Of a stretch of 64,000 nt of DNA, positions 29,105 through 46,845 are shown piece by piece (positions within the stretch are counted from its first letter, which is position 1; every line of letters starts with the position of its first letter). Source of the DNA: an uncultured Bacteroidaceae bacterium (GTDB lineage: Bacteria > Bacillota > Clostridia > Christensenellales > CAG-917); the NCBI GenBank assembly GCA_964550635.1, contig CAZJZV010000008.1, positions 691 to 64,690 on the forward strand, given 5' to 3'. Below the pieces are notes generated by a model. The model saw nothing but the letters and a program-made list of their open reading frames with translations, was not told where the DNA came from and made no database searches. The position numbers and the translations under genes were made by a program.

Positions 29105-29832
29105 ATTTCAAAGGCTTGCTCAAAAGAAATCTGATTGAATCCATGCGCGATCCGGTGACAATACTTCTTGCGTTGTGTTTCCCGGTGTTTTTGTTGATAT
29201 TGTTCTTCGCAATCGACAAGTCCGTCGATATGGATATATTGACCTTTTCACCCGCAGAGTTGACTCCCGGCGTCGTCGTATTCGGATATTCTATGCTCAT
29301 GATGACCGAAGGAAATCTGATATGCGCCGACCGCACGTCGTCGTTGTTTTCGCGGTTTCGCACTTTGCCTATGCGGACGATTGACTACGTGATAGCGTAC
29401 GCGCTACCTTTTCTTGCAATGGCTGTAGGGCAGTACGTCGTAACCTATGCGATAGCGTTTTGTTTCGGGCTTTGCTGGACTCCGCACGTATTCACGACTT
29501 TTCTATTGCTATTTCCGATAGCAATAATTTTCGTATCTCTCGGAATGCTCATGGGATTCACTTTGAATGCAGGGCAACTTGTCGGAATAGGCAACGGACT
29601 CATCACGGTGATTGCTATTTTGTCGGGTGCTTGGTTTCCTGTTGACGTCGTCGGCGGAGCGTTTGAAATCATCGCAACCGTATTTCCGTTTTACGATGCG
29701 GTCGCACTTTCAAGAGCGTTATTGCAGGGCGCGGAGTTTGAATGGTATCGGCTCTATATTCTTATCGCATACGCGGTCGCCCTTCCGACTCTATCCGTTT
29801 TCGTGACCGCAAGGCGACTTAAAAAGGCGTAA
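29101..29832 (+). CDS. ABC-2 type transporter permease
   Basis: 243 aa with about 6 TM helices. Its ATG overlaps the ATPase stop (ATGA). Confidence 0.75.
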   Translation: MNFKGLLKRNLIESMRDPVTILLALCFPVFLLILFFAIDKSVDMDILTFSPAELTPGVVVFGYSMLMMTEGNLICADRTSSLFSRFRTLPMRTIDYVIAYALPFLAMAVGQYVVTYAIAFCFGLCWTPHVFTTFLLLFPIAIIFVSLGMLMGFTLNAGQLVGIGNGLITVIAILSGAWFPVDVVGGAFEIIATVFPFYDAVALSRALLQGAEFEWYRLYILIAYAVALPTLSVFVTARRLKKA

Positions 29833-29881
29833 AGAGTTCATTTGCGTTGACTACTAATTCAAGGAATGGTACAATCGAAAT

Positions 29882-30358
29882 ATGAAAATTTTGTTCGTAT
29901 GTTCATCAAACGTGTGTCGCAGTCCGTACTGCGAATTTATGCTCCGTCGCATGGTCGCGGAGGACGACGTCCTTTCGCGCGCAGGGATAGAAATCTCGTC
30001 GTCGGCGGTGCTCAACCATAGCAAAGAAATCTTCCCCAAAGCAGTTGTTGCTCTCAAAAACGAAGGGTTTAGCGAAGAAGAATTGCTCCGCCACAAACCG
30101 TCGCACAAGTCGAACGCAAGGGATAGATTTGAAGAAGCGGATATCATCATCGGTATGTCGCGCTTTCACAAATTGCTCACTCCCGCAAGTTGCAGGAGCA
30201 AGTATATCACCCTGTCCGAAGTCGCGGAAGGTAAGTATACTCCGATCCCCGACCCGTGGCTCAAAACGTCGCAAGCGGATTACGACAAGTCAATGGCAGT
30301 CTTGAAGAGGTATCTCGACGAGTATTTCGTCAAACTCAAGGCGCAATTCGCAAAATAA
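29882..30358 (+). CDS. low-molecular-weight protein tyrosine/arginine phosphatase family protein
   Basis: N-terminal CX5R(S) P-loop (ILFVCSSNVCRSP) and a DP general-acid motif (IPDPW). 158 aa. Confidence 0.8.
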   Translation: MKILFVCSSNVCRSPYCEFMLRRMVAEDDVLSRAGIEISSSAVLNHSKEIFPKAVVALKNEGFSEEELLRHKPSHKSNARDRFEEADIIIGMSRFHKLLTPASCRSKYITLSEVAEGKYTPIPDPWLKTSQADYDKSMAVLKRYLDEYFVKLKAQFAK

Positions 30359-30398
30359 CAAAAACCGCTTTTATCTGTCGAAAATAGGTCGTTAAACT

Positions 30399-31187
30399 AT
30401 GGTTATTGATTTTCACACACATATTTTCCCCGATGCGCTTGCTCCGCGTGCATACGCTTCTCTCACCGCAAACGCAAAGGGTTTGTACACTCCGTCCCAC
30501 GATTTGACTAGGGACGGTTTGCTATCGTTTATGGAGAAGTCGGGCGTCGATAAGTCCGTCGTCCTTCCCGTGCTTACAAAAAGAGAACAGGTCTTCAAAA
30601 CGAACGAATGGGCGCGCTCTCTCGAGTCGGATAAGATCGTTCCTTTCGGGGGTGTCTATCCGTCCGAGCATTACAAGGAAGATATCGACTTCGTTTGCTC
30701 TCTCGGTTTCAAAGGCATAAAACTCCATGCGGAATATCAACGCTTTGTTTGCGATAGCGACGATATGCTCCGTTTCTACGACTACGCTTTTTCAAAGGGC
30801 TTGATCATCGTCCAACACGCAGGCTACGATCCCATATCCGTCGGCGAGTTGAACACGTCCCCGAAAAGATTCGCACACGTCGCAGAAGAGTTGCGCGGTG
30901 GCGTAATGGTTTGCGCTCACTTCGGCGGTCAGAGTCAATGGGATGACGTCGAGAAGTATTTGGCAGGCTCGAACGTCTATCTCGATACGTCTATGGGCAC
31001 GGAATACTACGGCGAAGAAAAATTCAAATCAATCGTCGAAAAACACGGCGCGGACAAGATTTTGTTCGGATCGGATTCCCCTTGGAGCGACGCAGGCAAA
31101 GAGATTGTCAACCTTAAATCTATGCTTTCCGCGGACGATCAAGAAAAGGTATTCCACCAAAACGCGGAGAGAATATTAGGTTTATAA
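30399..31187 (+). CDS. amidohydrolase-2 family metal-dependent hydrolase (TIM barrel)
   Basis: N-terminal IDFHTHIFPD metal-binding motif. 262 aa, with a C-terminal GSDSPW motif. Confidence 0.7.
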   Translation: MVIDFHTHIFPDALAPRAYASLTANAKGLYTPSHDLTRDGLLSFMEKSGVDKSVVLPVLTKREQVFKTNEWARSLESDKIVPFGGVYPSEHYKEDIDFVCSLGFKGIKLHAEYQRFVCDSDDMLRFYDYAFSKGLIIVQHAGYDPISVGELNTSPKRFAHVAEELRGGVMVCAHFGGQSQWDDVEKYLAGSNVYLDTSMGTEYYGEEKFKSIVEKHGADKILFGSDSPWSDAGKEIVNLKSMLSADDQEKVFHQNAERILGL

Positions 31188-31204
31188 TTACAAATAATAA
31201 CCAT

Positions 31205-31525
31205 ATGAGTTTCTATGATCTCGTCTACGAGCAGGTGAAGAAAATTCCGAAAGGCAAAGTCGCAACCTACGGTCAAATCGCATGCATGTGCGGCTCCCCC
31301 AAAGCGTCGCGCGCAGTCGGCTACGCCCTGCACTCAAATCCCGATCCCGAACATATCCCTTGTTATAGGGTAGTGAACCGCTACGGCGCGCTTGCCCAAA
31401 AATTCGCCTTCGGCGGCGCGGAAGCCCAAGCCGACCTTCTCCGCACCGACGGCATCGAAGTCTCCACCCGCCTCGACAACGGCATTCTCACGTATTACGT
31501 CGACCTGAATCGCTATCGATTTTAA
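31205..31525 (+). CDS. MGMT-family DNA-binding domain protein (methylated-DNA--protein-cysteine methyltransferase C-terminal domain only)
   Basis: 106 aa. KIPKGKVATYGQIA...SRAVGYAL...IPCYRVV corresponds to the PCHRV active-site region, with His replaced by Tyr. Confidence 0.7.
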   Translation: MSFYDLVYEQVKKIPKGKVATYGQIACMCGSPKASRAVGYALHSNPDPEHIPCYRVVNRYGALAQKFAFGGAEAQADLLRTDGIEVSTRLDNGILTYYVDLNRYRF

Positions 31526-32154: not shown

Positions 32155-32796
32155 ATGGCAAAGAAAACCCCAAGGATCGAACGTAAGGCAGTTTATGAAA
32201 CCAACGTCGTTACGTTGTGTCGCGACCGTTATAAAGACAAACTCGACGAAGTCAATGCCGAACTCGAACGCGATAATGCTCAATTGAAAGTTTGTTTGGA
32301 GAAAGGTAAACTCTCAACCGACGAAGAAGAGAAGCGCGCGCTCGCACGCGAAGTGAAGAAGATTCGCGATAAAATCGAAATATTCAAAGGCAATGAATTT
32401 ATGTTCCGCGAAACCGTCGATCTTTTCGACAAGTTGGTTGATATCTTGGATTCGTTGATGATGAGAGAACAATATAGAATCATCGTCCGCAAAATTCCCG
32501 AGAAGAAATTGCCCGATCTCGTCAGAGATCTAAAGCGCGAAAAACTTAACGAACTCTTGATGGAACTCATCAGAGTGCTTGACGTGGCAAACAAAAAGTC
32601 AATGCTTTCGTCAAAAGAATTGAAAGAACAATTGCATACACGCGATATCGAAAATGCAAATTTCATGGAACGCAATGCACCCAACGAGGATGACATTGAC
32701 GCAATCATGGCGGAATTTGAATCGGATACCGCAACCGTTACGGCGACCGTTGTGAATGAAACGAGCAACGTGAACAACGTCGTAAATAATAACTAA
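32155..32796 (+). CDS. ESCRT-III superfamily-like (Snf7/PspA-like) helical protein, paralogue 1
   Basis: 213 aa and predicted all-helical. It has a basic N-terminus (MAKKTPRIERK) and an acidic C-terminus with NEDDIDAIMAEFESD. That tail resembles the Snf7-family acidic tail and the E. coli PspA segment LDEAMARFESFE (recalled from memory). AAGGAG RBS. Confidence 0.45.
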   Translation: MAKKTPRIERKAVYETNVVTLCRDRYKDKLDEVNAELERDNAQLKVCLEKGKLSTDEEEKRALAREVKKIRDKIEIFKGNEFMFRETVDLFDKLVDILDSLMMREQYRIIVRKIPEKKLPDLVRDLKREKLNELLMELIRVLDVANKKSMLSSKELKEQLHTRDIENANFMERNAPNEDDIDAIMAEFESDTATVTATVVNETSNVNNVVNNN

Positions 32797-32822
32797 AAAA
32801 TAATTAAGTGGAGGAATACACT

Positions 32823-33458
32823 ATGAGCAAAATCGACAAAGAACTCAAAAAAGAAGAAACCATCGCAAAGAGTTTGGCTACCATCATCGAGGCACGCGAA
32901 TCCGTTGAAAGCCTTGTGAAACAATACGACGAGTGGATCGACCAAGCGTTTGAACTCGGCGAAACGGAATATAGCGATCAACTCATCGCAGACCAAGTCG
33001 AGCTCGAAGAATTTTCGCGCAATCTTTCGTTCGTCGAAGTGAGAATTCGCGAATCCGCAGTGAGCGCAAGAGCTTTCGGAAAACTCAAATGCTTGCCCAA
33101 CGCGATGAAGTGCTGCAAGGATTTGTCCAGTGGTCTCAATCTTCCCAAAATCGGAAAGGATATGGTTGCATTCAGAAAATCTCTTGATAATGCACGCGCA
33201 TCTCTCAAAGATTTGAGAAGCGAAATGTCCGCCGACGACAAGTTCAGTAAGCTTGTGTTGAACGAAAAACTCGGCAGGAAGATTGATTCCAAAACGGCTC
33301 AAGCAATCGAACAAAAGAAACTTGCTCGCGAAGGACGCCTTGCACAAAAAGTTAGCAACAATTCGGTTGCTCCCGTCGCTTCCGGTATCGGAGCGGACGT
33401 TTCCGCAGGTATCGACGCTATCACCGCAATGATAGACGAAGAAAACAAGAAAAACTAA
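32823..33458 (+). CDS. ESCRT-III-like (CHMP2/Vps2-like) helical protein, paralogue 2
   Basis: 211 aa. ATG 32823 follows GGAGG. The segment AMKCCKDLSSGLNLPKIGKDMVAFRKSLDNA parallels human CHMP2A AMKGVTKAMGTMNRQLKLPQIQKIMMEFERQAE (recalled from memory). The C-terminal GIDAITAMIDEE helix is similar to the tail of paralogue 1. Confidence 0.55.
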   Translation: MSKIDKELKKEETIAKSLATIIEARESVESLVKQYDEWIDQAFELGETEYSDQLIADQVELEEFSRNLSFVEVRIRESAVSARAFGKLKCLPNAMKCCKDLSSGLNLPKIGKDMVAFRKSLDNARASLKDLRSEMSADDKFSKLVLNEKLGRKIDSKTAQAIEQKKLAREGRLAQKVSNNSVAPVASGIGADVSAGIDAITAMIDEENKKN

Positions 33459-33478: not shown

Positions 33479-34753
33479 ATGGCAGATTCAATCAAAGAGT
33501 CCTACGTAGCACTCATTGAAATCTATAATCAACATCGCACTTTGGGGGACAGTGCATCCGCTTTGCGCATTGCAAACGAGATCATCAAAATCGCAAGATC
33601 TCAATGCGCAAGAGACGATCTTCCGAAGCAAGTGAAAGATTACTATGCGTCAAGTTCCACGCCCATCAAAGAGTGGGTTGCGGGCATGAACGTTGCGCCG
33701 TTGCAACAAAAGTCGAATGCAAACAATCCGTCCGAAGACAAAATAAAGTCTACGGACTGGTTCGGCGCGGATATACCCAAACTCACTTTGCGCGACGTAG
33801 CAGGATTGCAACCGCTCAAAGACGAGTTCACCGTGAACGTCTTGGCGCCTATGTCTCCAAAATATGCTCCTATCTATCGGAAGTATAGAAAGGAAGTCGG
33901 CTTGCAAATCTTGATGTACGGCCCTCCGGGATGCGGAAAAACGCATATCGTCAAGTGCTTGGCGGGTACTCTCGGTTGCAAAATCGCGGTCGTTCAAGTG
34001 AAAGACGTCATGGCGAATCTCGTCGGCGACGGCGCGAAAATCATAGCGGAGATATTCGAACAAGCCAAAAAGTTCGACAAATGTATCATATTCTTCGATG
34101 AAATCGATGCAATCGCCGCAAGCCGTGACGACGACGAAAGTCGCCATACGAAAGAGCAGTTGACGACGTTGCTCACGAATATGGACGGGTTCACTTCATC
34201 CACGAAACCCAATCAAATTCGTATCATCATCGCGGCAACCAATCGTCCGTGGGTACTCGATAGCGCGGTTAAGCGCGGTGGACGTTTCGACACTCAAATC
34301 TACGTCCCGCTCCCCGATTTCGAGGCGCGTGCAAGACTTATCGAGCTTGCTCTCGGGAAGGACGAGAAAGTCAAAGACCGTATCGACGTCCCCTGCGACG
34401 ACGACGTGACTATTGAATGGCTTGCAGAGCGATTTGAGGGCTATTCGGGCGGCGATATTAAGGCGATCTGCAAACAGATTATCAACAGACCGCTCAAACG
34501 TGAAATCGACGCATTGCGCACAACCGGTCAGGTTGTGAGCGATCGTATAACTCGGGAAGATTGCGAGTTCGTGATGAAACGCTACATCAATTCTATCACC
34601 GACGAAATGTTGTTCAGTTACGACGCCTACGCCGCCAATATGGACCTTGCAGAATATCTTGCGCTTTACGAGCAAAAGGCAAGAGAAGACGAGGCAAACG
34701 GTATTCCGCTTCCTGCGCACGTGCAACGTTGGCTCGACGATATGGACAACTAA
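33479..34753 (+). CDS. Vps4-like (meiotic-clade) AAA ATPase with N-terminal MIT-like helical domain
   Basis: Walker A GPPGCGKT and Walker B [37 protein letters not shown] is nearly identical in pattern to Vps4 [37 protein letters not shown] is also present. The N-terminal roughly 75 aa is helical with no TM. Confidence 0.8.
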   Translation: [424 protein letters not shown]

Positions 34754-34763
34754 AACGTACCTG

Positions 34764-35705
34764 ATGGGAACGAACTTTGACCAAAAACTGAAAAACGCTT
34801 ACGTTGCGGCAAAATCGTACGCGACGCGCGGAGATGCAGTAAACGCACGAAATTGCGTGCTTGAATGCATGGAGTCTTTGCTTGAATTGTACAAAATCAC
34901 AAAGAGTCCGTCCGAGCGTGCAAAGATATACGCCAAAGTTGTCGAGTTCAAAAATATTTCTTCCGAACTCTACAAGAACGGCGTGAACCAAAAGGTTAAA
35001 GCGTGGTTTTGCATTGCGGAAACCGCCAAGAAAGAAGCGCCGACCGAAAATAAGCGCGGTGCGACTTCGGACGATATGCTTTGGACGGAAAAGGTTTTTC
35101 GCAACAACTGTTCGTCCGTAATGTCAATCCGTTGCTCACTGCGGAACGGTGAGTGCTTTAGCGGGACCGGATTTAGCATATCCGAAAACGGCTATCTGTT
35201 GACGAATCACCATGTGGTGTACGACGAAAACAACGATGAGTATTGCAAAATCATATACGCTACTCCGTTCGGACAGTCGAAATCGTATCAAATAGAATTG
35301 ATCGACGCGGACGAAAAGAACGACGTTGCGCTTTGCAAATACGATCCGACCGAGATGGACGGAGTTACGGCAGTCAAACGCATTGACGACTACGAAAGAG
35401 TGTCTCAAGGTATGGGAGTGTTGTCGATAGGCAACGGACTTTCCATGGGACTTGCTCCGATAAGCGGTATAATCAAGTTCACGAAAGGGACTCTCGTCAC
35501 CACCGTACCGTTGAATAAGGGCGACTCCGGTTCGCCGGTGTTCAACCCCGACGGCGAATGTATCGGCATCAATTGCTCCACTACCGCAGAAGTTATTCGC
35601 GGAAATCACGTATGTGAAGCAGTGGGCATATCCAACGCAACGCCTATGTGCACCATCGATAAACTGCTTGATAAGTGGTGCGCAAAATACGACATACAAT
35701 TATGA
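34764..35705 (+). CDS. MIT-like domain fused to a trypsin-fold (S1/HtrA-like) serine protease
   Basis: The catalytic triad is readable: His in LLTNHHVV, Asp in NDVALCKY, Ser in NKGDSGSPVF. The N-terminal 75 aa (AKSYATRGDAVNARNCVLECMESLLELYKITKSPSERAKIYAKVVEFKNISSELYK) parallels helices 1-3 of the Vps4 MIT domain. Confidence 0.7.
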   Translation: MGTNFDQKLKNAYVAAKSYATRGDAVNARNCVLECMESLLELYKITKSPSERAKIYAKVVEFKNISSELYKNGVNQKVKAWFCIAETAKKEAPTENKRGATSDDMLWTEKVFRNNCSSVMSIRCSLRNGECFSGTGFSISENGYLLTNHHVVYDENNDEYCKIIYATPFGQSKSYQIELIDADEKNDVALCKYDPTEMDGVTAVKRIDDYERVSQGMGVLSIGNGLSMGLAPISGIIKFTKGTLVTTVPLNKGDSGSPVFNPDGECIGINCSTTAEVIRGNHVCEAVGISNATPMCTIDKLLDKWCAKYDIQL

Positions 35706-35712: not shown

Positions 35713-37308
35713 ATGATACTAGAAAAAATCCGCGACCTATACGTTCAGGCGCGCGAACTAGCAAAAACGGGTAATAATTCCAATAGCCTTATCGTGATAA
35801 ACAATATCACGGAAATTTCTAACTACGTAAAGGAACTTTATGAGCAGAGTACCAATATGGAGCGCATAAAGTGCAGAGCGCAATACGAGGGTTTTGACAA
35901 CGTCGTCAATATCATCAAAGTTTGCGGACTAAAGGATGAAAGAGTAAGGGCGTTTTTCGGGCTTGCACCGTCATCCGCGCACGCTCCGTCGTTCTCCGAT
36001 ATATTGAACGGCAACGTTCCTCAAACACCTCAAAATGCGGGTTCTAACACGGCAAAACCGAGTGCAAACGGTGTTGGCGCACCTGTCGCAAAAAGCAAAA
36101 AGCCCGCCAATCAACCGAAAATCGGCGCCGTTGCATCGGGAGCTGATAGCACTTTCGACGACGGTAAAATAAATCCTAAATACACCCCCGATAGCCTTGA
36201 CGACTTCATAGGTCAAGAGCGTGTGGTTAGGGAACTGAAACGCGAAATCAAAATCGCGAAAACAAACGGACGTCATAACCTTGACAATATCCTGTTGTTC
36301 GGCAATCCCGGACTCGGGAAAACCACTCTTATGAAATTGATTGCGGCGGAGTTGGGCGCGGAATACGAGCCTTTCGACTGCTCGCAAATGGGCAACACGC
36401 AACAAACGTTGAAGAAGATGCAAAGCTTTCTCATCCGCGTGTCCAAAATCAATAAGCCCGTCGTCATCGCATTCGATGAAATACATATGTTGAGTCGCGA
36501 ATTGCAGTCCGCACTTTTGACATTGCTCAACGATAGAGTGTTCGTGTCGCCGCCCGACTTGAACGGTAATATCAAACGAATACCGATTGAAAACTTCACT
36601 TTCATCGGCGCGACGACCAACGACGAAGGCGTCCTGCCCACGATAAAGAACCGTTGCTTGGGACTCACGTTCCAACTTGTCGACTACACGAACGACGAGC
36701 TCAAACGTATATATAGGAATAAGGTCGCGTCCAAGGGCTTGACCATATCCGACGACGCAATCGAAGTTTGTATTCCGAGAAGTCGCGGTGCAATCCGCTA
36801 CGTCAATTCCTTTGTCGACGGACTCGATAAGGCGCTCTATAACGACGACGGTATGCGTACCTCCTTCCATATCGACCTCGACGTCGCTCTCGCATACTTT
36901 GAGAAGAAAGGCATCGACCCCATGGGGCTCACCGATAAGGACCTTGAAATCCTGCATACCCTCGAAGAAACGGACGGTATGGGCGTGGATGTTCTCGCCG
37001 CAAGAGTCGGCTTGGATTCGAAAAAGTATCAATCAGAGTACGAAAAATATCTCATCAAGATAGGGTTCATCGACGTGAACGGCAAAGGTCGCACTCTTAC
37101 GGATAGAGCATTGCGCTATCTCAACGCAACGGGCGGGGATGATGACGGCGAAGTCGCACCCGATTGCCCCGACGAAACCGACAACAACGGCGGTTGCGAC
37201 GATTCTACCATCGACACAACCCCCGAAACGGCCGAACAAGATCAACCAGAAACCTCTTCGGACAACGACGTCCCGAAAGACATCATCGACGACCTATTCG
37301 GCGACTAA
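35713..37308 (+). CDS. MIT-like domain fused to a RuvB-type AAA+ ATPase with an acidic C-terminal tail
   Basis: FIGQERVVRELKREIKIAK...ILLFGNPGLGKTTL (compare RuvB FIGQE...LL.GPPGLGKTTLA), Walker B VIAFDEIHML and sensor FIGATTN. The winged-helix C-domain (GLTDKDLEILHTLEE...YEKYLIKIGFIDVNGKGRTLTDRALRYL) follows the RuvB domain III pattern. The N-terminal 70 aa is helical and MIT-like. The tail ends ...DVPKDIIDDLFGD. Confidence 0.7.
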   Translation: MILEKIRDLYVQARELAKTGNNSNSLIVINNITEISNYVKELYEQSTNMERIKCRAQYEGFDNVVNIIKVCGLKDERVRAFFGLAPSSAHAPSFSDILNGNVPQTPQNAGSNTAKPSANGVGAPVAKSKKPANQPKIGAVASGADSTFDDGKINPKYTPDSLDDFIGQERVVRELKREIKIAKTNGRHNLDNILLFGNPGLGKTTLMKLIAAELGAEYEPFDCSQMGNTQQTLKKMQSFLIRVSKINKPVVIAFDEIHMLSRELQSALLTLLNDRVFVSPPDLNGNIKRIPIENFTFIGATTNDEGVLPTIKNRCLGLTFQLVDYTNDELKRIYRNKVASKGLTISDDAIEVCIPRSRGAIRYVNSFVDGLDKALYNDDGMRTSFHIDLDVALAYFEKKGIDPMGLTDKDLEILHTLEETDGMGVDVLAARVGLDSKKYQSEYEKYLIKIGFIDVNGKGRTLTDRALRYLNATGGDDDGEVAPDCPDETDNNGGCDDSTIDTTPETAEQDQPETSSDNDVPKDIIDDLFGD

Positions 37309-37331: not shown

Positions 37332-38147
37332 ATGAAACAAACTAAAATCAGAACAAAAATCGACTTGTTGAAAGCACTCGACAACCTTACAAAAGTCGAT
37401 AACGAGTATTTGCCTGTCAATTCAGACAAGTATAAAAAAGTGAAAGAACACAAAGATCTGATACAACTTATCGCTACCGGTTTGCCAAAAACGGCGGATA
37501 TAAGCGATTTGAGTTCGCTTGACTTCGGCGAGCAGTCGCTTGAAGAATACGTAAAAAACAACAGCGTCGAAACAGTCGAAAAAAGGCTCATCTCGATTGA
37601 GAGCGACATAAACACAAGAACGTCGCAATATGCCAATACGTATTTTGAAAAAAAAGAAGCTGATAAAAAGAAAGAAGACGTTGTAATTTTTGGCGAAGAT
37701 CTTATTGAGGTTTATGATACAATGCAAAGTCGGAACCATAAGAGGCTCATTGCCTTTGCCGTAGTTTTCATAGTATCCTCTGTAATTTTCGCGGCGGCGG
37801 CAATATGCTTGTTGATTGATTCAATAAAATGTTTTTTGGGAGAGAGCGGAGTGACGATTTGTTCCGCTATTTGCACCGTCGCAGGTGTGGCAGATTTTAT
37901 AAACGGTGGAGCGTTTTCTGTATATGAACGCATTGATGACAAGAAAAAGACCAAGGTCAACAATGAAGCCGCAAAATCATTAAAAACTAAAAACCCCGCT
38001 ATTGCTTTTAGGGAAGTAAAGAATAGTATTATTATTGACGGCAAAGCGTGCGGTGTTATTATTAATAAAACGGTGAACAATGGAGGGGAAAATACAAATG
38101 AAAATAATGAAAAAACTGGGCAAGATATTTCCACAACGAAAGAATAA
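37332..38147 (+). CDS. membrane protein with a central 2-TM hairpin, function unknown
   Basis: ATG 37332 follows AAGGGAGAG. 271 aa with a helical N-domain, then LIAFAVVFIVSSVIFAAAAICLLI and VTICSAICTVAGVADFINGGAF. No family recognised. Confidence 0.55.
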   Translation: MKQTKIRTKIDLLKALDNLTKVDNEYLPVNSDKYKKVKEHKDLIQLIATGLPKTADISDLSSLDFGEQSLEEYVKNNSVETVEKRLISIESDINTRTSQYANTYFEKKEADKKKEDVVIFGEDLIEVYDTMQSRNHKRLIAFAVVFIVSSVIFAAAAICLLIDSIKCFLGESGVTICSAICTVAGVADFINGGAFSVYERIDDKKKTKVNNEAAKSLKTKNPAIAFREVKNSIIIDGKACGVIINKTVNNGGENTNENNEKTGQDISTTKE

Positions 38148-39597
38148 GAAGACGGAAGTTGAGTCTGCACAACAGGATAAAAATCTAGTTGGCGGTGAAG
38201 ATAACGGCATCACTTTGAATGCGGTAGACACAGCGCAAACGAATGACGACTACTCTTGTCTTCGTCAGGTTGAAGATTATCAAGACGACCAATCAATAAG
38301 CGAAAGCGATAAAAAAACTGACGGCGTCGCAGATTTTTCTATAGTCGATGACTCTACTGCTACTTTGGATGATGAACAACAAACTGATAGAAATACACAA
38401 GCAGCAAATAGCAGGTCGAAAGAAAACAACAAAGAGAACTCGTCATCACAGCCCAGCAATAATTCTAATGGTGACATTACTAATAGTGTTGTAATAGGGG
38501 GCAACCTCTTTGGATTGGCGCTGAATATTGTTCGAAATGGTGTTTCTAAACTGTGGGTAAAAAATAAAATTAAAGAGTCGGATAAGAAGAACGAAGTTGA
38601 GCGTGCGAAGCTTGAGACTCGAATAGATAAATATTTGCTTATTAAAATTGCGGAGAGCAAAGAAGAAATAATAAAAGAAATCAAGGGTGAATTAGATCAG
38701 CAAATAAAACACCATAATGATTTTGAGTCGGCAATTAAAGCGACGGTTGCTAATCTGTCGGATGCTTGGGGAAGATTTTCTGACGACATAATAAAACGAC
38801 TTGAAAAAGTCGAAAATTTGGATTCTCAAGTTGCTAACGCAAGTAAAATCTTAGAAGAGCACAAAGTAAGAATTGATGCATTAGAAGGTCGGCAAATAGA
38901 ATTCATGGAATATGCAATGGATTATATTAATTCATTGAAAAATTCTTTGGAAGAAGTCAGCAATAAAACTAACGAACTAGAAGAGGAAGTAAGACGATTA
39001 AAAGAAGAACTGGAACGGATAAAAAAACTTATCTCGTCGCAAAAGCTCGACCCTCGCTATGAAATTTGCCCTCGATGCGGATCATACCATTCGTTTGACA
39101 CATACAAAAGAGGTGAAGAAGGAGAAAAACCATATTACATATGTGCAGTCTGTGGCCGAAAAGATAATGATGACGAAGATAATATTCAAATTATAAAGGA
39201 CGATAAGAGTATAAATTCGGAACTTCACGTTCTAGCATCATCGGTATTGGATGATTCGATGAACAAACATGGTTTAACGAGTATAAAACGCGTGTTAGTC
39301 AAAAATAATATACAAAAAATTGGCACATCACAAGGTGGGAGCGCAATTAACAAATATTATGGAAAATTGGAGGTTTTTTCTCTCAGCAATCCAAATGAGA
39401 AAGGTGAACCACATTATACATTGGGCAAAGGGCTGTTTGATTTTAGCAATAATCGGAAATGGATAAAACTATATGGAATGAAGTATGTGAAAACAATTGA
39501 AGACGGATGTTTTAAGGGCATAGAAAGAGGAAAAAGAGAAGCATTTTGGAAAAAATACGGCTTCACACTTAAGCGCGAAGATAAGTATTTTTGCTGA
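38098..39597 (+). CDS. coiled-coil protein with zinc-ribbon (CxxC...CxxC) and C-terminal globular domain, function unknown
   Basis: ATG 38098 lies 9 nt after GGAGGGG and overlaps the previous gene by about 50 nt. It has an acidic, low-complexity N-region and a long heptad-like stretch (LEEVSNKTNELEEEVRRLKEELERIKKL). The zinc ribbon reads CPRCGSYH...CAVCGRKD. The C-terminus is faintly LRR_5/BspA-like. Confidence 0.5.
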   Translation: MKIMKKLGKIFPQRKNKKTEVESAQQDKNLVGGEDNGITLNAVDTAQTNDDYSCLRQVEDYQDDQSISESDKKTDGVADFSIVDDSTATLDDEQQTDRNTQAANSRSKENNKENSSSQPSNNSNGDITNSVVIGGNLFGLALNIVRNGVSKLWVKNKIKESDKKNEVERAKLETRIDKYLLIKIAESKEEIIKEIKGELDQQIKHHNDFESAIKATVANLSDAWGRFSDDIIKRLEKVENLDSQVANASKILEEHKVRIDALEGRQIEFMEYAMDYINSLKNSLEEVSNKTNELEEEVRRLKEELERIKKLISSQKLDPRYEICPRCGSYHSFDTYKRGEEGEKPYYICAVCGRKDNDDEDNIQIIKDDKSINSELHVLASSVLDDSMNKHGLTSIKRVLVKNNIQKIGTSQGGSAINKYYGKLEVFSLSNPNEKGEPHYTLGKGLFDFSNNRKWIKLYGMKYVKTIEDGCFKGIERGKREAFWKKYGFTLKREDKYFC

Positions 39598-39610
39598 TTA
39601 AGGAGGAAAT

Positions 39611-40246
39611 ATGGATTTGTTGACAATAGTTTTGATAGTGGGACTATCGTGTATGACAATGGCGTTTGTATGTGCCTTATGTGTGTGTGTTAAGCAGCAT
39701 TGGAGTTTCGAATGCGAACAAAACGCATTGGCATCTGCACTCAATAATAAGGCTCGGCAAAAAGATTGCGCCAAAGGTGTTGCTCATTTGACTGCTGATG
39801 AATTGATCGCGCAAAAAAACGAAGAAATTGCATCTCTCAATGATATGATAGCAAAATATGAAGAAGAACATAGGCGCAACGTCGAGGTGGAAAAGAAGCT
39901 AGAAAAGCACTACGGCGATGCAGGCATTTCTTTAAGCAATTTGATTGGATATACCGAAGACTGTAGAAAAACGCTTAAACATGATTATATTGAAAGAGGA
40001 GTAGAATATTCTTGTGATGATATTGATTATGTTTTAAAAGCAATTTTGAGAGAAGAAATTTGTATTGTTGAAAGATTGCCCAATTATTATCCACAAATAG
40101 GGGAGAAAATTGATTGCGCGTGCATGGAAGAAGTCGGGGAGAAAAATTATGGTTACATAACTCAAATTGTGGAACCCGGGAAAAAATGTGGAACTTTCGT
40201 GGTTCGCAAAGCAAAAGTAAAAACAGAAAGGAGAATACAAGAATGA
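39611..40246 (+). CDS. N-terminally membrane-anchored coiled-coil protein with GrpE-like C-terminal domain
   Basis: TM helix LLTIVLIVGLSCMTMAFVCALCVCV. Coiled coil EEIASLNDMIAKYEEEHRRNVEVEKKLEK. The C-terminus (IGEKIDCACMEEVGEKNYGYITQIVEPGKKCGTFVVRKAKVKTE) parallels the GrpE beta-domain (VGKPFDP.LHQAVMQVE...V.E.LQKGYKL.DRVIRPSMVKV). It lies immediately upstream of, and overlaps, the Hsp70-like gene. Confidence 0.4.
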   Translation: MDLLTIVLIVGLSCMTMAFVCALCVCVKQHWSFECEQNALASALNNKARQKDCAKGVAHLTADELIAQKNEEIASLNDMIAKYEEEHRRNVEVEKKLEKHYGDAGISLSNLIGYTEDCRKTLKHDYIERGVEYSCDDIDYVLKAILREEICIVERLPNYYPQIGEKIDCACMEEVGEKNYGYITQIVEPGKKCGTFVVRKAKVKTERRIQE

Positions 40247-42039
40247 AACAAATTATTACGATAGGCATCGACATTGGCACTCAATACTGCAGTGCAGGTT
40301 ATGTTTTGGATAATGAATATCATCAAATTGATTTTGCCAACTGTCCGTATGGAATTCCGACAACGGTATGTTTAAGAAGCGCCGATGCCAATGAAAAAGA
40401 AAACATTGTAGAGCAGCATGATGGCAAAAAATACGTAGTGGAATCAGGCACAAATGCGGTTGATAAAATAGATACAGACTATTCTAATGGGAGCGTATAT
40501 ATATTATCGCCTTCACAATCGATAAAAACGCTCATGAGAAAAAATGTGAAACAAGTAAAGTTATTTAATAATATCACGTCACTAGATGAAGATTTCGAAA
40601 CTAAAGAATTAGTATATAACTTTATTTGGCATGTAGTAGATAAAATAATAGATAAATTCCGCGCTAATGGAATTAATTTAAACGATTATAAATTAGTCGT
40701 CAATATGGGCTATCCGGGGAAAGATGAGTTAAATTCCAACGAAGAAGAAAACTACAAGAATGAGATTGCACGCATAGTAGGCAGTGCGTTTAATTTAAAG
40801 GTAGACGGAGCAAATGTAGAGGTTAAAGCTATAAGCGAAGCAGCGCTAGCGGCAGATTTGCTAAAAAATATCTGCTTGGAAAATAATGGATCGCCGAAAC
40901 AAAAAGTTTGTACAATTGACGTGGGTGCTGGAACTACCGATTTGGCTTTTTTGAAATTGGATGAAAAAACACACAAATATTTGTGTGAAGGTCAAACGAC
41001 ATGCAATTTTGGGGGGAAAAGCATCGATCTAGTTCTCGGGGATCAAAGCCTGGAATGGGAACGAGAAAATGGAGGCATTCATAAAGGCGAATTAAATCCC
41101 GCTCACCTTCGTCCGGATACTATAGCAAAACGCAAAAAATGGATTTTCACCGGAAATGCCGAAGATGGTAAGATAACTGGTTATGATAATATATATCTCA
41201 GTAAGAAAATTGGTGAGTATATTGAAAACGATACTATTGTTACAGAAGAACGTGATTTGGGCACTTTAAAAACCAAATTTGAAAAATTTATAGAAGAAAT
41301 TACAATAGAAGTAAAAAATAATGAGGCAGACGTCGCATTTGTTTTATTGGGCAATTCCAGTCATTTGTCTTATATCAGAGATATGATTGAGGAAACAGTG
41401 AAGCGTAAATTGAGCAATCTAATGGTGAAGGTAGACATTTCATTTTTGGAAGATGCATTAAAGAACACGCCGTTGAATTATATAAACAATTCAAATTTTA
41501 TTGCCAGAGCGGCTGCCGGTTATGAAAATGATATGATAACTACTAATTGTTATGCATTTAGTTATTATAACAAAGAAAAGAATGAAAATGGTTATAAAAT
41601 AATTTCGAGCAAGGGAAATCTAAAAGGATCTTATTATGACACCGAGGCGGACTATATGGTTAATAAGGAAAACAACGAATGTGATTTCGAGGTTGGCGGA
41701 ACAGTGTATAGCATTAAAATACTAGAAAGCGAAGCAATGCAAAAAGCAAATGTTGGCAAGGATTTTTATTATTTAAAGGGGAGCGTACAACCTAAAAACG
41801 TAGACATTGATAAAGAAAATATAAAATATTATAAGCCAACACTAAAGGGAAAGGGCTTGAGATACAACGTAGGGTGCAGTATTGACGATCAGGGAAAATT
41901 AAGTATATGCGTCTTCGCTAATGATAATGACAAAAAGACAAGCGAGGAGAGAAAGAATTTTTTGGAAAAAGCGATTAAAACGGCAGACGCACACGGTAAT
42001 CTTAGCCGTTGGTTCGAATTAAAAAATTACAAAGTATAA
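40243..42039 (+). CDS. divergent Hsp70/actin-fold ATPase (DnaK-like nucleotide-binding domain plus unrelated beta-rich C-terminal domain)
   Basis: Phosphate-1 motif ITIGIDIGTQYCSAG and phosphate-2 motif CTIDVGAGTTDLAFLKL. 598 aa. Its ATG overlaps the upstream stop (ATGA). It is Asn/Lys/Ile-rich. Confidence 0.65.
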   Translation: MKQIITIGIDIGTQYCSAGYVLDNEYHQIDFANCPYGIPTTVCLRSADANEKENIVEQHDGKKYVVESGTNAVDKIDTDYSNGSVYILSPSQSIKTLMRKNVKQVKLFNNITSLDEDFETKELVYNFIWHVVDKIIDKFRANGINLNDYKLVVNMGYPGKDELNSNEEENYKNEIARIVGSAFNLKVDGANVEVKAISEAALAADLLKNICLENNGSPKQKVCTIDVGAGTTDLAFLKLDEKTHKYLCEGQTTCNFGGKSIDLVLGDQSLEWERENGGIHKGELNPAHLRPDTIAKRKKWIFTGNAEDGKITGYDNIYLSKKIGEYIENDTIVTEERDLGTLKTKFEKFIEEITIEVKNNEADVAFVLLGNSSHLSYIRDMIEETVKRKLSNLMVKVDISFLEDALKNTPLNYINNSNFIARAAAGYENDMITTNCYAFSYYNKEKNENGYKIISSKGNLKGSYYDTEADYMVNKENNECDFEVGGTVYSIKILESEAMQKANVGKDFYYLKGSVQPKNVDIDKENIKYYKPTLKGKGLRYNVGCSIDDQGKLSICVFANDNDKKTSEERKNFLEKAIKTADAHGNLSRWFELKNYKV

Positions 42040-42088: not shown

Positions 42089-42136
42089 TGGGGGGAAATG
42101 GTGGGGGAAAGGGGAATCCTTTTCCTGTTTTTTTGT

Positions 42137-46629: not shown

Positions 46630-46845
46630 ACTTTCCTTTATGCCTAATTGTGATGCGAATTTTATTTGCACGCGTTGTCCGCGCGTTATATATAATTATA
46701 GGCTATGATATGATATAACAAAATCAATAATTTGGCAAACGTATTTCATATTTTCTTGCAAATTAAAGAAAATATAATTATGAACAGCGGACTTTTTGTG
46801 GTTGAATACCCGTCGAAATTCAAAAAGAGCAACGAAAAGAGCGGT

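What the first reader, a model, noticed from the sequence alone, without database searches (positions are those of the whole stretch)
32155..33458. Two adjacent ESCRT-III/PspA-like paralogues sharing a C-terminal acidic IDAIxA helix (candidate MIM)
Seen: both proteins are about 212 aa, lack TM segments and are rich in heptad-like charged helices. Each has a basic N-terminus (MAKKTPRIERK / MSKIDKELKK) and an acidic C-terminus. Protein 2 has ...AMKCCKDLSSGLNLPKIGKDMVAFRKSLDNARASLKDLRSEM... By eye this tracks the human CHMP2A segment AMKGVTKAMGTMNRQLKLPQIQKIMMEFERQAEIMDMKEEM (recalled from memory). Protein 1 ends with NEDDIDAIMAEFESD, similar to Snf7-type acidic tails and to E. coli PspA LDEAMARFESFE (recalled from memory). 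The two tails share the motif (D/G)IDAI(M/T)A-x3-(E/D)E. Established: ESCRT-III subunits are about 220-aa basic-N/acidic-C helical hairpin proteins whose C-terminal MIM helices bind MIT domains. Inference: these form a heteropolymer scaffold with MIM-like tails that match the three MIT-like modules encoded downstream.
Basis: partly seen in the sequence, partly recalled or inferred. Interest (0 to 1): 0.75.

Follow-up and report, generated by a model that had tools for sequence, protein, structure and literature searches.

The report
Bacterial ESCRT-III-like operon with recruited enzymes
One of the two adjacent helical proteins is a very divergent bacterial relative of the eukaryotic/archaeal membrane-cutting protein Snf7 (ESCRT-III), and it heads a conserved, mobile five-gene operon with an unfoldase, a protease and a RuvB-like ATPase that I could not find described anywhere.

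Summary
The two ORFs are real genes: P1 at 32155-32796 and P2 at 32823-33458. P2 belongs to the ESCRT-III superfamily, on the Snf7 side. A 94-sequence family profile aligns co-linearly with a Snf7 profile (hhalign E 3.7e-5). That score equals the accepted Snf7-PspA control and is far above shuffles. CHMP2A is its best PDB sequence match and its best fold match.

P1 is not shown to be a paralogue. It has a confident predicted helical hairpin but no sequence signal to Snf7, PspA or P2. P1 and P2 are always adjacent and are fused in one lineage.

The P2 C-terminal motif (I-D-x-I-x-x-M-I-D-E-E-N-K-K) is the best-conserved part of the family. It is present where the protease gene is present and absent in the three loci that lack the protease and RuvB-like genes. 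The protease and RuvB-like N-terminal modules are homologous to each other and borderline MIT-like. The AAA N-domain is not detectably related to either.

Unlike classical ESCRT-III, P2 has no basic hairpin and no N-terminal membrane anchor.

The most likely function is a polymer scaffold that recruits enzymes through tail peptides, within a variable conflict island.

The parts
32155..32796 (+). P1: 213-aa helical-hairpin protein, the obligate partner of P2. Family hallmark is IPEKKLP at residues 114-120. The C-terminal tail (193-213) is disordered and Asn-rich.
   Evidence: ORF. AF2 pLDDT 80.8: helices 7-53 and 57-103 (pLDDT >90), then 107-113, 118-125, 128-173 and 178-190. Family alignments A3, A4, A11. 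No Pfam, NCBIfam or PADLOC hit.
32686..32724 (+). P1 acidic amphipathic helix (residues 178-190, DDIDAIMAEFESD), at the alpha5 position of the predicted fold.
   Evidence: Helix 178-190 in the AF2 model. The pattern (D/E)-hydrophobic-(D/E)-x-I-M/L-x-E-F/Y is moderately conserved.
32823..33458 (+). P2: 211-aa divergent Snf7-type ESCRT-III protein. The mechanical ORF starts at GTG 32808.
   Evidence: hhalign A10 vs Snf7 profile: probability 71%, E 3.7e-5, 145 columns, with controls. Pfam Snf7 hits 13 of 94 family members. Best PDB hit is CHMP2A 7zcg_B at E 9.9e-4, co-linear 9-137/9-135. AF2 helices fit the alpha1-alpha6 pattern. Best Foldseek hit is CHMP2A.
33372..33377 (+). Conserved Pro-Val in the otherwise variable linker before the P2 tail (P184 68%, V185 55%).
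   Evidence: Column frequencies in A10.
33411..33455 (+). P2 C-terminal tail motif IDAITAMIDEENKKN: a candidate docking peptide at the MIM position.
   Evidence: I/V 78%, D 88%, E 74% and terminal K/R across 94 cluster representatives. The motif is absent where the protease and RuvB-like genes are absent.
33479..34753 (+). Classical-clade AAA+ ATPase (424 aa): N-terminal ~73-aa helical domain, linker, AAA domain plus lid, and a C-terminal ~75-aa extension. Pore loop 1 reads L-V-G.
   Evidence: Pfam AAA 1.8e-36 and AAA_lid_3. NCBIfam bits: CDC48 161.6, PAN 157, FtsH 153, CdvC 136.9. Nearest PDB sequences are p97 D2 and AFG2. Pore loop.
33479..33697 (+). AAA N-terminal helical domain (residues 1-73).
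   Evidence: Alignment A7. No detectable relation to MIT or to the other two modules.
34764..35705 (+). Trypsin-fold (HtrA/DegP-like, no PDZ) serine protease with an N-terminal ~84-aa helical module. The sequence shows NHH, DVAL and GDSGSP motifs.
   Evidence: Pfam Trypsin_2 3.7e-17. NCBIfam DegP/HtrA family. Start inferred from homologues. Sequence.
34764..35015 (+). Protease N-terminal helical module, homologous to the RuvB-like N-module.
   Evidence: hhalign A5 vs A6: probability 97.5%, E 7.2e-12, 77 columns. Borderline similarity to the MIT profile.
35713..37308 (+). RuvB-derived AAA+ ATPase (531 aa): N-terminal helical module, RuvB_N, RuvB_C winged helix, and an acidic disordered tail.
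   Evidence: Pfam RuvB_N 6.6e-21 and RuvB_C 7.5e-13. NCBIfam RuvB 155.7 bits, full length, below the cutoff of 282.
35713..35964 (+). RuvB-like N-terminal helical module.
37273..37305 (+). C-terminal peptide PKDIIDDLFGD of the RuvB-like protein: a third acidic amphipathic end motif.
   Evidence: The C-terminal peptide recurs in 7 further loci, as PKDI(I/V)D(D/E)(L/F)F in five and as NIID(E/D)MFG in L013 and L006.
37332..38147 (+). Membrane protein (271 aa; cytosolic coiled-coil N-part plus TM helices). Lineage-specific accessory gene.
   Evidence: Kyte-Doolittle maximum 2.95. Homologue in L005 and L001 only.
38080..39597 (+). Coiled-coil protein with a CxxC...CxxC zinc ribbon. Lineage-specific accessory gene; start uncertain.
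39611..40246 (+). 211-aa protein with an N-terminal TM helix.
40243..42039 (+). Hsp70/actin-fold ATPase-like protein (IGIDIGT and IDVGAGTTD motifs): the last gene of the extended operon.
   Evidence: BLASTP E 9e-7 to the last gene of the clostridial downstream block, which has a weak Pfam HSP70 hit. Homologue in L005.
42104..42126 (+). Terminator-like hairpin with a T-run after the last gene.
   Evidence: 10-pair stem. No comparable + strand site lies between P1 and the end of the RuvB-like gene; the only other + strand matches are weaker ones at 37871, 39661, 40770 and 42267.

Best explanation
P2 is a bacterial, highly divergent Snf7-type ESCRT-III protein. I propose that it assembles with its obligate partner P1, a helical-hairpin protein with an ESCRT-III-like predicted topology, into a hetero-polymer. 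The polymer would act mainly as a recruitment scaffold. The conserved peptide on a flexible tail of P2 (I-D-x-I-x-x-M-I-D-E-E-N-K-K) would dock the homologous N-terminal helical modules of the trypsin-like protease and the RuvB-like ATPase. The classical AAA+ ATPase would engage and remodel or disassemble the polymer, as Vps4/CdvC does, through its own unrelated N-domain, possibly via P1.

The five-gene core sits in a variable chromosomal island and is joined to lineage-specific modules (TM protein, zinc-ribbon coiled coil, Hsp70-like ATPase, LRR and TIR-like proteins, a DO-GTPase-like protein). It is therefore most likely a conflict (anti-invader) system rather than a housekeeping membrane-repair system.

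Shown: P2 homology to ESCRT-III, conserved synteny, the P1-P2 fusion, tail-motif conservation and its co-occurrence with the protease gene (and usually the RuvB-like gene), and homology of the two N-modules. Inferred: polymerisation, tail-module binding, the role of the AAA, and the immune function.
For: P2 as ESCRT-III:
- The representative search found 110 cluster representatives.
- hhalign of the 94-sequence profile A10 against a Pfam-validated Snf7 set gives score 37.2, E 3.7e-5 over 145 co-linear columns.
- The accepted Snf7-PspA homology scores 37.8 in the same set-up. Reversed profiles score 14-15.5, and 40 block shuffles reach at most 22.5.
- Snf7 is the Pfam family hit by most members (13 of 94, best 3.4e-7); PspA_IM30 hits 4 of 94.
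- CHMP2A is the top PDB sequence hit at E 9.9e-4 and the top Foldseek hit.
- The hairpin tip aligns with the PspA tip motif.
- AF2 helices: 8-49, 53-93, 95-108, 112-141, 145-155, 161-185, 198-215.

P1-P2 partnership: the two genes are adjacent wherever upstream sequence is available. They are fused in P0131.

Tail and modules:
- Motif conservation.
- The motif is present in all 16 loci that carry the protease, and also in L019, which lacks the AAA. It is absent in L023 and L030 (AAA present, protease and RuvB-like genes absent) and in L029.
- Protease-N and RuvB-N are homologous and show a weak MIT-like signal.

Architecture of the AAA: helical N-domain, linker, then the AAA domain, with a CdvC model alignment covering residues 73-385.

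Conflict context:
- L005 has the same flanks at 78-92% identity, but its cassette is only 35-67% identical.
- An integrase lies next to the fusion locus.
- Downstream modules are variable.
- LRR_5, a weak TIR hit, DO-GTPase2 and Hsp70-like neighbours occur.
- The AAA hits the PADLOC IetA model.
Against: - P1 has no sequence-level link to Snf7, PspA or P2. Its Foldseek matches are all above E 0.09 and are mixed with designed bundles and BAR domains.
- P2 lacks two functional hallmarks of ESCRT-III: a basic hairpin and a hydrophobic N-terminal anchor. Membrane action is therefore doubtful.
- MIT identity of the modules is not established: no Pfam or PDB sequence hit and only a borderline hhalign score.
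- The AAA is no closer to Vps4/CdvC than to Cdc48, PAN or FtsH, and its pore loop lacks the aromatic residue.
- The co-occurrence argument rests on only three motif-less loci.
- No relatives were found in phage, plasmid or IMG/VR collections. There is no hit to a validated defence family above its cutoff (NCBIfam IteA 116 bits against a cutoff of 510).
- No binding or polymerisation was computed or measured.
Confidence: 0.45

Rival explanations
1. ATPase-protease defence system with homotypic adaptors. The shared N-terminal module of the protease and the RuvB-like ATPase is an effector-associated-domain-type adaptor. It binds copies of itself, so the NTPase recruits the protease, rather than binding the ESCRT-III tails. 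P1 and P2 are then sensors, regulators or substrates, and their tail motifs serve another purpose, for example as a degron for the AAA unfoldase.
For: The same module sits on an NTPase and on an effector protease. This is the arrangement described for EADs in bacterial conflict systems (PMC7159879, section 30 heading and discussion text seen). MIT identity is unproven. The AAA domain resembles the IetA ATPase models of PADLOC.
Against: The P2 tail motif is lost when the protease and RuvB-like genes are absent, yet it is kept in L019, which has the protease but neither the AAA nor the RuvB-like protein. That pattern is hard to explain if the tail were an AAA degron, or if the protease module only needed the RuvB-like module. 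The RuvB-like protein also carries its own C-terminal acidic peptide.
Confidence: 0.22
2. Protease-licensed polymer. P2, P1 or both are kept inactive by their C-terminal regions. On infection the trypsin-like protease cuts the flexible linker (conserved Pro-Val in P2, Asn-rich end in P1). This releases autoinhibition and triggers polymerisation that damages the cell or traps the invader, in the way gasdermin or ESCRT-III autoinhibition is released.
For: ESCRT-III proteins are autoinhibited by their C-terminal parts (established knowledge; review PMC7619361). P2 has a conserved P-V in an otherwise variable linker, and the P1 family has a conserved N-x-N end. The protease motifs look intact, and the protease is tied to the tail motif.
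Against: No cleavage site is defined. The HtrA-like fold gives no specificity prediction. The subtype without a protease (L023, L030) keeps P1, P2 and the AAA. The acidic hairpin argues against membrane attack.
Confidence: 0.15
3. Housekeeping envelope-stress or membrane-repair module: a PspA/Vipp1-like function with a dedicated AAA+ recycling factor.
For: Superfamily membership of P2. Foldseek puts Vipp1/PspA at the top for P1. In the Bacteroidaceae version, membrane proteins are encoded downstream.
Against: Only about 110 cluster representatives were found among 1.84 billion, scattered over unrelated phyla. The cassette is far more diverged than its flanks at the same site. There is no basic hairpin and no alpha0 anchor. 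A RuvB-derived DNA motor, a protease, and LRR and TIR-like neighbours do not fit membrane repair.
Confidence: 0.06

Closest known systems
Eukaryotic/archaeal ESCRT-III (Snf7 family, e.g. CHMP2A, CdvB) with Vps4/CdvC
   Same: P2 aligns co-linearly with CHMP2A over alpha1-alpha4. It has the hairpin plus short-helix topology and a conserved peptide at the extreme C-terminus after a flexible linker. It is encoded next to a second hairpin protein and a classical AAA+ ATPase built as helical N-domain, linker, AAA.
   Different: The operon is bacterial and mobile. P2 has no basic-hairpin/acidic-tail charge polarity and no hydrophobic N-terminal anchor. By my own reading against the MIM1 consensus recalled from memory, (D/E)xxLxxRLxxL(K/R), the tail motif does not fit. 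The AAA is not specifically Vps4-like, and its pore loop is L-V-G. No ESCRT-II/CdvA-type partner was seen.
Bacterial PspA/Vipp1/LiaH (ESCRT-III superfamily)
   Same: Same superfamily. The hairpin tip of P2 aligns with the PspA tip motif. Vipp1 is the top fold match of P1. By eye, the P1 helix DDIDAIMAEFES resembles PspA alpha5 LDEAMARFESFE.
   Different: P2 is closer to Snf7 than to PspA: hhalign 71% against 24%, and Pfam 13 members against 4. There is no alpha0. The partners are different: no PspB/C/F and no LiaI/F. According to a 2025 review, a Vps4-like ATPase 'appears absent in bacteria' for PspA systems (PMC7619361).
Eukaryotic ESCRT-III-MIT interactome (Vps4, spastin, katanin, calpain-7, and others)
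   Same: The logic is the same: several enzymes of different kinds (AAA ATPases, a protease) each carry a small N-terminal helical module and are encoded with, or recruited to, ESCRT-III tails (PMC9477494 and PMC10586806 abstracts). Here an AAA, a protease and a second ATPase each carry such a module.
   Different: MIT homology is only borderline for two modules and absent for the third. Binding is untested. One recruited enzyme is a RuvB-derived DNA motor with a winged helix, which to my knowledge has no eukaryotic MIT counterpart.
Previously noted bacterial Snf7/PspA-AAA+ neighbourhoods (Ravi et al. 2024, PMC11237479)
   Same: Bacterial Snf7-clade or PspA genes next to AAA+ ATPases, interpreted as ATP-dependent remodelling.
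   Different: Those contexts are an ABC transporter/PBPB-OmpA operon, a two-AAA-domain protein, or a Vps4 homologue with a TPR-6TM protein in place of Snf7. None has the partner hairpin protein, the trypsin protease, the RuvB-like ATPase or the tail motif.
IetAS (ATPase + protease anti-phage system)
   Same: A AAA ATPase paired with a serine protease in a variable island. The PADLOC IetA models hit the AAA domain at 7e-41.
   Different: NCBIfam IteA scores 116 bits against a cutoff of 510. The match covers only the generic AAA core. The protease here is trypsin-fold. IetAS has no ESCRT-III-like or RuvB-like genes (own knowledge).

Membership tests
ESCRT-III superfamily (Snf7/PspA): P2 | Statistically supported profile similarity to Snf7/PspA over the core helices | tested here: met
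   hhalign A10 vs Snf7: E 3.7e-5, 145 columns. Controls. Pfam Snf7 hits 13 of 94 members, best 3.4e-7. Top PDB hit is CHMP2A at E 9.9e-4. The window protein alone and the shallow profile do NOT reach significance.
ESCRT-III superfamily (Snf7/PspA): P2 | alpha1-alpha2 long hairpin followed by alpha3, alpha4 and alpha5 | tested here: met
   AF2 secondary structure: 8-49, 53-93, 95-108, 112-141, 145-155 (hairpin pLDDT 80-91, the rest 50-70). Top Foldseek hit is CHMP2A with probability 0.99, but E is 0.15.
ESCRT-III superfamily (Snf7/PspA): P2 | Basic N-terminal half / acidic C-terminal half (membrane binding and autoinhibition) | tested here: not met
   P2 family mean net charge is -0.9 (N-half) and -1.6 (C-half), against +11.8 and -20.2 for five ESCRT-III proteins. 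The window P2 hairpin has net charge -8.
ESCRT-III superfamily (Snf7/PspA): P2 | N-terminal membrane-binding motif (alpha0/ANCHR) | tested here: inconclusive
   The N-terminus MSKIDKELKKEE is charged. The first 15 residues contain on average 4.1 hydrophobic residues, against 5.2 in the ESCRT-III set. No amphipathic-helix analysis was run.
ESCRT-III superfamily (Snf7/PspA): P2 | Polymerisation into filaments, with alpha5 packing on a neighbour's hairpin | not testable with these tools
   Needs multimer prediction or electron microscopy.
ESCRT-III superfamily: P1 | Profile similarity to Snf7/PspA or to P2 | tested here: not met
   hhalign probability 0.1-1.6%. No Snf7 or PspA hit in Pfam for 27 members. 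No ESCRT-III entry in the PDB hmmsearch.
ESCRT-III superfamily: P1 | Hairpin plus alpha3-alpha5 topology | tested here: inconclusive
   AF2 pLDDT 80.8 with helices 7-53, 57-103, 107-125 (broken), 128-173 and 178-190. 21 of the top 50 PDB Foldseek hits are ESCRT-III superfamily, led by Vipp1, but every E is at least 0.095. BFVD matches are generic.
MIM (MIT-interacting motif): P1/P2 tails | Conserved C-terminal amphipathic peptide after a flexible linker | tested here: met
   P2. The P1 helix is conserved less strongly and sits at the alpha5 position.
MIM (MIT-interacting motif): P1/P2 tails | Binds an MIT domain | not testable with these tools
   Only indirect evidence: the motif co-occurs with the protease and RuvB-like genes.
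MIT domain: N-modules of protease and RuvB-like protein | Sequence-profile match to MIT (PF04212) | tested here: inconclusive
   No Pfam MIT hit in 23 members, only a few weak TPR hits. No PDB hit. hhalign against a Pfam-validated MIT set gives probability 28%, E 6.4e-4, score 23.0, against a shuffle maximum of 22.5 in 60 runs.
MIT domain: N-domain of the AAA | Sequence-profile match to MIT | tested here: not met
   hhalign probability 0.6%. MIT is not among the 25 of 33 Pfam families listed, and the unlisted ones all have E above 0.066.
Vps4/CdvC: the AAA ATPase | Specific affinity to the Vps4/CdvC (meiotic-clade) AAA over other classical AAA families | tested here: not met
   NCBIfam bits: CDC48 161.6, PAN 157.1, FtsH 153.2, CdvC 136.9. 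The top PDB sequence hits are p97, AFG2 and NVL. No phylogeny was made.
Vps4/CdvC: the AAA ATPase | Aromatic pore-loop-1 residue (K-W/Y-hydrophobic-G) | tested here: not met
   L-V-G in 19 of 20 homologues.
RuvB: the third enzyme | RuvB_N AAA+ domain plus RuvB_C winged helix at orthologue-level score | tested here: inconclusive
   Both domains are present. The full-length NCBIfam match scores 155.7 bits, below the cutoff of 282. There is also an extra N-module and an acidic tail. It is RuvB-derived, not an orthologue.
IetAS defence system | IetA/IteA equivalog-level match | tested here: not met
   116 bits against a cutoff of 510. The PADLOC hit is limited to the AAA core.

The most novel reading that the evidence does not exclude
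Bacteria possess a mobile Snf7-type ESCRT-III system that works through a 'tail code', as the eukaryotic ESCRT-III-MIT network does. A P1/P2 co-polymer displays short C-terminal peptides. These peptides recruit an unfoldase, a protease and a RuvB-derived DNA motor through small N-terminal helical modules. The polymer forms an ATP-remodelled immune scaffold, possibly on DNA or in the cytosol rather than on membranes. If so, the logic of recruiting enzymes to ESCRT-III tails is not an archaeal-eukaryotic invention, and ESCRT-III polymers have a non-membrane, immune use.
Probability: 0.3. Interest if true: 0.85.

Novelty: new variant of a known kind. Interest (0 to 1): 0.72.

Why it matters
Snf7-type ESCRT-III with a dedicated AAA+ partner is regarded as an archaeal-eukaryotic feature, and a 2025 review states that a Vps4-like ATPase appears absent from bacterial ESCRT-III (PspA) systems. 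This operon is a compact bacterial system in which a Snf7-type protein is hard-wired to a AAA+ unfoldase. Through a conserved tail peptide it also appears linked to a protease and a DNA-motor ATPase that share one adaptor module. It offers three things. First, a tractable five-gene model for how ESCRT-III tails recruit enzymes. Second, a probable new class of conflict system in gut Bacteroidaceae and Clostridia. Third, a test of whether ESCRT-III polymers can act away from membranes, given the acidic hairpin and missing anchor. The P2 family has about 110 clusters at 50% identity and no match in Pfam, NCBIfam or PADLOC, so it is invisible to standard annotation.

Tried and rejected
- Single-sequence and shallow-profile searches of P1 and P2 against Pfam, PADLOC, NCBIfam and PDB sequences gave nothing. 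The signal for P2 appeared only after the exhaustive representative search deepened the family.
- P1-P2 paralogy was tested by BLASTP and by local and global hhalign with shuffles. It was rejected as unsupported.
- P1 was tested against Snf7, PspA and PDB profiles. No signal.
- Foldseek of P1 against viral structures was uninformative.
- MIT identity of the AAA N-domain was rejected at sequence level.
- Vps4-specific identity of the AAA was rejected.
- A phage or plasmid origin found no support: no relatives in INPHARED, PLSDB or IMG/VR. The A10 alignment was too diverse for the IMG/VR pattern scan.
- Source names for the proteins: none exist.
- Six literature searches and five papers read gave no description of this operon.
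- The sigma-70 promoter scan is not informative for Bacteroidota-type promoters.


Full report
**What is there**

The finding covers two co-directional ORFs. P1 runs from 32155 to 32796 (213 aa). P2 is listed as 32808-33458, but all homologues begin MSK(I/L)DKELK, so its real start is the ATG at 32823, giving 211 aa.

Three further genes follow on the same strand with gaps of 9-20 bases:
- a AAA+ ATPase (33479-34753);
- a trypsin-fold protease (34764-35705);
- a RuvB-like AAA+ ATPase with the RuvB C-terminal winged helix (35713-37308).

Four more co-directional genes come next:
- a TM protein at 37332-38147;
- a 211-aa protein with an N-terminal TM helix;
- an Hsp70/actin-fold-like protein at 40243-42039.

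A terminator-like hairpin lies at 42104-42126.

**Are they real genes, and how conserved is the arrangement?**

Homologue searches gave 4 relatives for P1 and 25 for P2. Scans of GTDB genomes and metagenomes gave 15 loci. Contig look-ups gave 15 more.

- Wherever enough sequence is present, a P1-like gene immediately precedes P2. Most loci have the order P1-P2-AAA-protease-RuvB-like.
- The hosts are Bacteroidaceae, several Clostridia, Christensenellaceae and one alphaproteobacterial MAG.
- Locus L005 has the same upstream housekeeping genes as the window at 78-92% identity. Its cassette is only 35-67% identical. This is the pattern of a variable island at a hot spot.
- Downstream genes differ by lineage. 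Both the Bacteroidaceae and the clostridial versions end with a homologous Hsp70-like gene.
- Other versions carry BspA-type LRR proteins, a weak TIR match, or a DO-GTPase2-like protein.
- No relatives were found in phage, plasmid or IMG/VR collections.

**Is P2 an ESCRT-III protein?**

The window protein alone and the 25-sequence profile hit nothing significant in Pfam, PADLOC, NCBIfam or PDB sequences. Against five Snf7-family sequences, hhalign gave only E 0.013.

The exhaustive search of 1.84 billion cluster representatives raised the family to 110 representatives. With the resulting 94-sequence alignment A10:
- hhalign against the Snf7 set gives probability 71%, E 3.7e-5 over 145 co-linear columns, P2 14-179 against CHMP2A 22-173.
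- Snf7 is the Pfam family hit by most members (13 of 94, best 3.4e-7), followed among relevant families by PspA_IM30 (4 of 94).
- CHMP2A (7zcg_B) is the top PDB sequence hit at E 9.9e-4, almost gap-free over 9-137 against 9-135. CdvB follows at 0.043.

Controls in the same set-up:
- the accepted Snf7-PspA homology scores 37.8, against 37.2 for P2-Snf7;
- reversed profiles score 14-15.5;
- forty block-shuffles of A10 reach 22.5 at most.

The PspA profile was also validated against PDB. It aligns with the P2 hairpin tip at E 8e-4.

The AF2 model has mean pLDDT 70.6, with the hairpin at 80-91. Its helices are 8-49, 53-93, 95-108, 112-141 and 145-155, then 161-185, with a terminal helix at 198-215. 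Its best Foldseek match in the PDB is CHMP2A (probability 0.99, E 0.15). Thirteen of the top 50 matches are ESCRT-III superfamily members.

I conclude that P2 is a divergent ESCRT-III protein, nearer to Snf7 than to PspA.

**Is P1 one too, and is it a paralogue of P2?**

The AF2 model of P1 is better, with pLDDT 80.8. Its hairpin is 7-53/57-103 at pLDDT above 90. A short broken helix follows around the invariant IPEKKLP motif, then a long helix at 128-173, a short acidic helix at 178-190, and a disordered Asn-rich end.

Vipp1 is the top Foldseek match, and 21 of the top 50 are ESCRT-III superfamily members. However, every E-value is 0.095 or worse, and designed bundles and BAR domains are interleaved. 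The viral structure library gave generic helical matches.

At sequence level nothing links P1 to Snf7, PspA or P2, even with a 27-sequence alignment built from neighbours of diverse P2 genes. The global hhalign score against P2 is 13.5, inside the shuffle range whose top value is 14.0.

P1 is therefore a helical-hairpin partner with an ESCRT-III-like topology. 'Paralogue' is not supported.

That P1 and P2 work together is supported by invariant adjacency and by a natural fusion. P0131 is 390 aa, with IPEKKLM in its first half and the P2 domain and tail in its second.

**The tails**

The P2 tail is the most conserved part of a family whose mean column identity is 22%:
- position 197 is I or V in 78%;
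- D198 is present in 88%;
- position 200 is hydrophobic;
- positions 203-204 are M/I/L followed by I/L;
- D205 is present in 60%;
- E207 is present in 74%;
- the motif ends in N/K/R-K/R-K/R.

It follows a variable linker that contains a conserved Pro-Val.

By my own reading against the MIM1 consensus recalled from memory, the motif does not fit MIM1. It is an acidic amphipathic helix with a basic end, at the MIM position.

The P1 helix (D/E)-hydrophobic-(D/E)-x-I-M-x-E-F is less conserved. It sits at the alpha5 position. hhalign did not detect this resemblance.

A third acidic end peptide closes the RuvB-like protein in the window and in seven other loci. It reads PKDI(I/V)D(D/E)(L/F)F in five of those loci and NIID(E/D)MFG in L013 and L006.

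**The N-terminal modules**

The first ~84 residues of the protease and of the RuvB-like protein are homologous to each other (hhalign probability 97.5%, E 7e-12, 77 columns). The first ~73 residues of the AAA are not detectably related to them.

- No member of the combined protease/RuvB-like module alignment A8 hits Pfam MIT or any MIT-containing PDB chain.
- Against a Pfam-validated set of six MIT domains, the protease/RuvB-like module scores 23.0 (probability 28%, E 6.4e-4). This is co-linear over three helices but barely above the best of 60 shuffles, 22.5.
- The AAA N-domain scores nothing.

'Three MIT-like modules' is therefore unproven: two are one family with a borderline MIT signal, and one is unrelated at sequence level.

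**Which tail goes with which module?**

There is a phyletic pattern.
- All 16 loci with a protease have the P2 tail motif.
- So does locus L019, which has the P1-P2 fusion and the protease but neither the AAA nor the RuvB-like gene.
- P2 lacks the motif in L023 and L030. Both have the order P1-P2-AAA, then a ~135-aa gene and a homologous large ORF, which in L023 has LRR_5 and a weak TIR match. Neither has a protease or a RuvB-like gene.
- P2 also lacks the motif in L029, which has no AAA, protease or RuvB-like gene within reach.

Thus the P2 tail follows the protease gene, usually together with the RuvB-like gene, and not the AAA. The sample is small, with only three motif-less loci.

**The enzymes**

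The AAA has intact Walker A/B motifs and arginine fingers (sequence).
- It scores similarly against CDC48 (161.6 bits), PAN (157), FtsH (153) and CdvC (136.9, aligned over residues 73-385).
- It is a classical-clade unfoldase with a Vps4-like domain order, but it is not specifically Vps4-like.
- Its pore loop 1 is L-V-G in 19 of 20 homologues.

The protease is HtrA/DegP-like without PDZ domains, and it contains NHH, DVAL and GDSGSP motifs.

The third enzyme matches RuvB over its full length, below the orthologue cutoff, and keeps the winged helix.

**Departures from classical ESCRT-III**

Five eukaryotic ESCRT-III proteins average +11.8 net charge in the N-half and -20.2 in the C-half. The P2 family averages -0.9 and -1.6. 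The window P2 hairpin has net charge -8, and its N-terminus is charged rather than hydrophobic. Direct binding of the hairpin to anionic membranes is therefore doubtful. A cytosolic or nucleic-acid-associated scaffold is as plausible as a membrane polymer.

**Literature**

A comparative-genomics study of PspA/Snf7 notes some bacterial Snf7/PspA-AAA+ neighbourhoods. These are transporter operons, a two-AAA-domain protein, or a Vps4 homologue with a TPR-6TM protein instead of Snf7 (PMC11237479). A 2025 review says a Vps4-like ATPase appears absent in bacteria (PMC7619361).

None of six searches found this operon. The two Aravind-lab papers on bacterial conflict systems do not mention it either. 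The library excludes most subscription journals, so absence there is not proof of novelty.

**Verdict**

Four results are solid:
- P2 is a divergent bacterial Snf7-type ESCRT-III protein with a conserved C-terminal peptide.
- It has an obligate hairpin partner, sometimes fused to it.
- The pair heads a conserved operon with a AAA+ unfoldase, a protease and a RuvB-derived ATPase.
- The protease and the RuvB-derived ATPase share an adaptor module whose presence tracks the P2 tail motif.

Polymerisation, tail-module docking, the Vps4-like role of the AAA and an immune function are inferences.

I rate it a new variant of a known kind (ESCRT-III plus AAA+), with interest 0.72.

Noticed in passing
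window 40243-42039 (+); L013:9817-11628; L005:16709-18589: The last gene of the extended operon encodes a ~600-aa protein with Hsp70/actin-fold phosphate motifs (IGIDIGT, IDVGAGTTD). It is homologous (BLASTP E 9e-7) to the last gene of the otherwise unrelated clostridial downstream block. Pfam found no hit at E<=0.001 for the window protein and only a weak HSP70 hit for L013.
   Followed up: partly
window 37273-37305: The RuvB-like protein ends, after a long acidic disordered stretch, with PKDIIDDLFGD. Related acidic end peptides close seven other loci: PKDI(I/V)D(D/E)(L/F)F in five, and NIID(E/D)MFG in L013 and L006. This is a third acidic amphipathic C-terminal peptide in the operon.
   Followed up: partly
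window 34009-34020 (AAA residues 177-180); 19 of 20 homologues: Pore loop 1 of the AAA ATPase reads (N/S/R)-L-V-G instead of the usual aromatic-hydrophobic-Gly. Only L015 has K-Y-V-G.
   Followed up: partly
L019:1573-2745 and L020:1567-2739 (protein P0131): A natural P1-P2 fusion (390 aa) lies next to a phage-type integrase. It is followed directly by the trypsin protease and a 1128-aa BspA-type LRR protein, with no AAA and no RuvB-like gene. A ClpP-like gene lies further downstream.
   Followed up: partly
L023:3597-10166 and L030:659-5342: A subtype of the system has the order P1-P2-AAA, then a ~135-aa protein and a large protein that has LRR_5 and a weak TIR hit in L023 (the L030 copy is 57% identical to it). 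It has no protease or RuvB-like gene, and its P2 lacks the tail motif.
   Followed up: partly
window 32731-32793 (P1 residues 193-213) and P1 homologues: The disordered end of P1 is Asn-rich, and most family members finish with an N-x-N-type pattern (NKNYN, NFINN, NQNLF, NVVNNN). Function unknown; possibly a protease or unfoldase recognition site.
   Followed up: no
window 28241-31525 vs L005:5590-8727: The upstream flank (ABC ATPase, permease, low-molecular-weight phosphatase-like protein, amidohydrolase, MGMT-like protein) is 78-92% identical between the window and L005. The cassette at the same site is only 35-67% identical. This points to an insertion or diversification hot spot.
   Followed up: partly
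window 38001-42000: G+C drops to 35-37% over the accessory genes, against 46-48% for the five core genes and ~50% for the flanks. The accessory block may have a different origin.
   Followed up: no
window 42190-46671 (-) and 42985-46605 (+): Two very long overlapping ORFs lie on opposite strands (1493 and 1206 aa), neither with a Pfam hit at E<=0.001. It was not resolved which strand is coding.
   Followed up: no
window 46732-47199 and 47376-47750 (+): Two adjacent ORFs match the TauE/SafE exporter profile in swapped order: the first matches positions 118-237 and the second positions 2-109. This suggests a rearranged or split gene, or two partial copies.
   Followed up: no
L003:15310-17892: In one clostridial locus the gene block after the RuvB-like gene includes an 860-aa protein with a near-threshold DO-GTPase2 match (26.7 bits, cutoff 27).
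   Followed up: no
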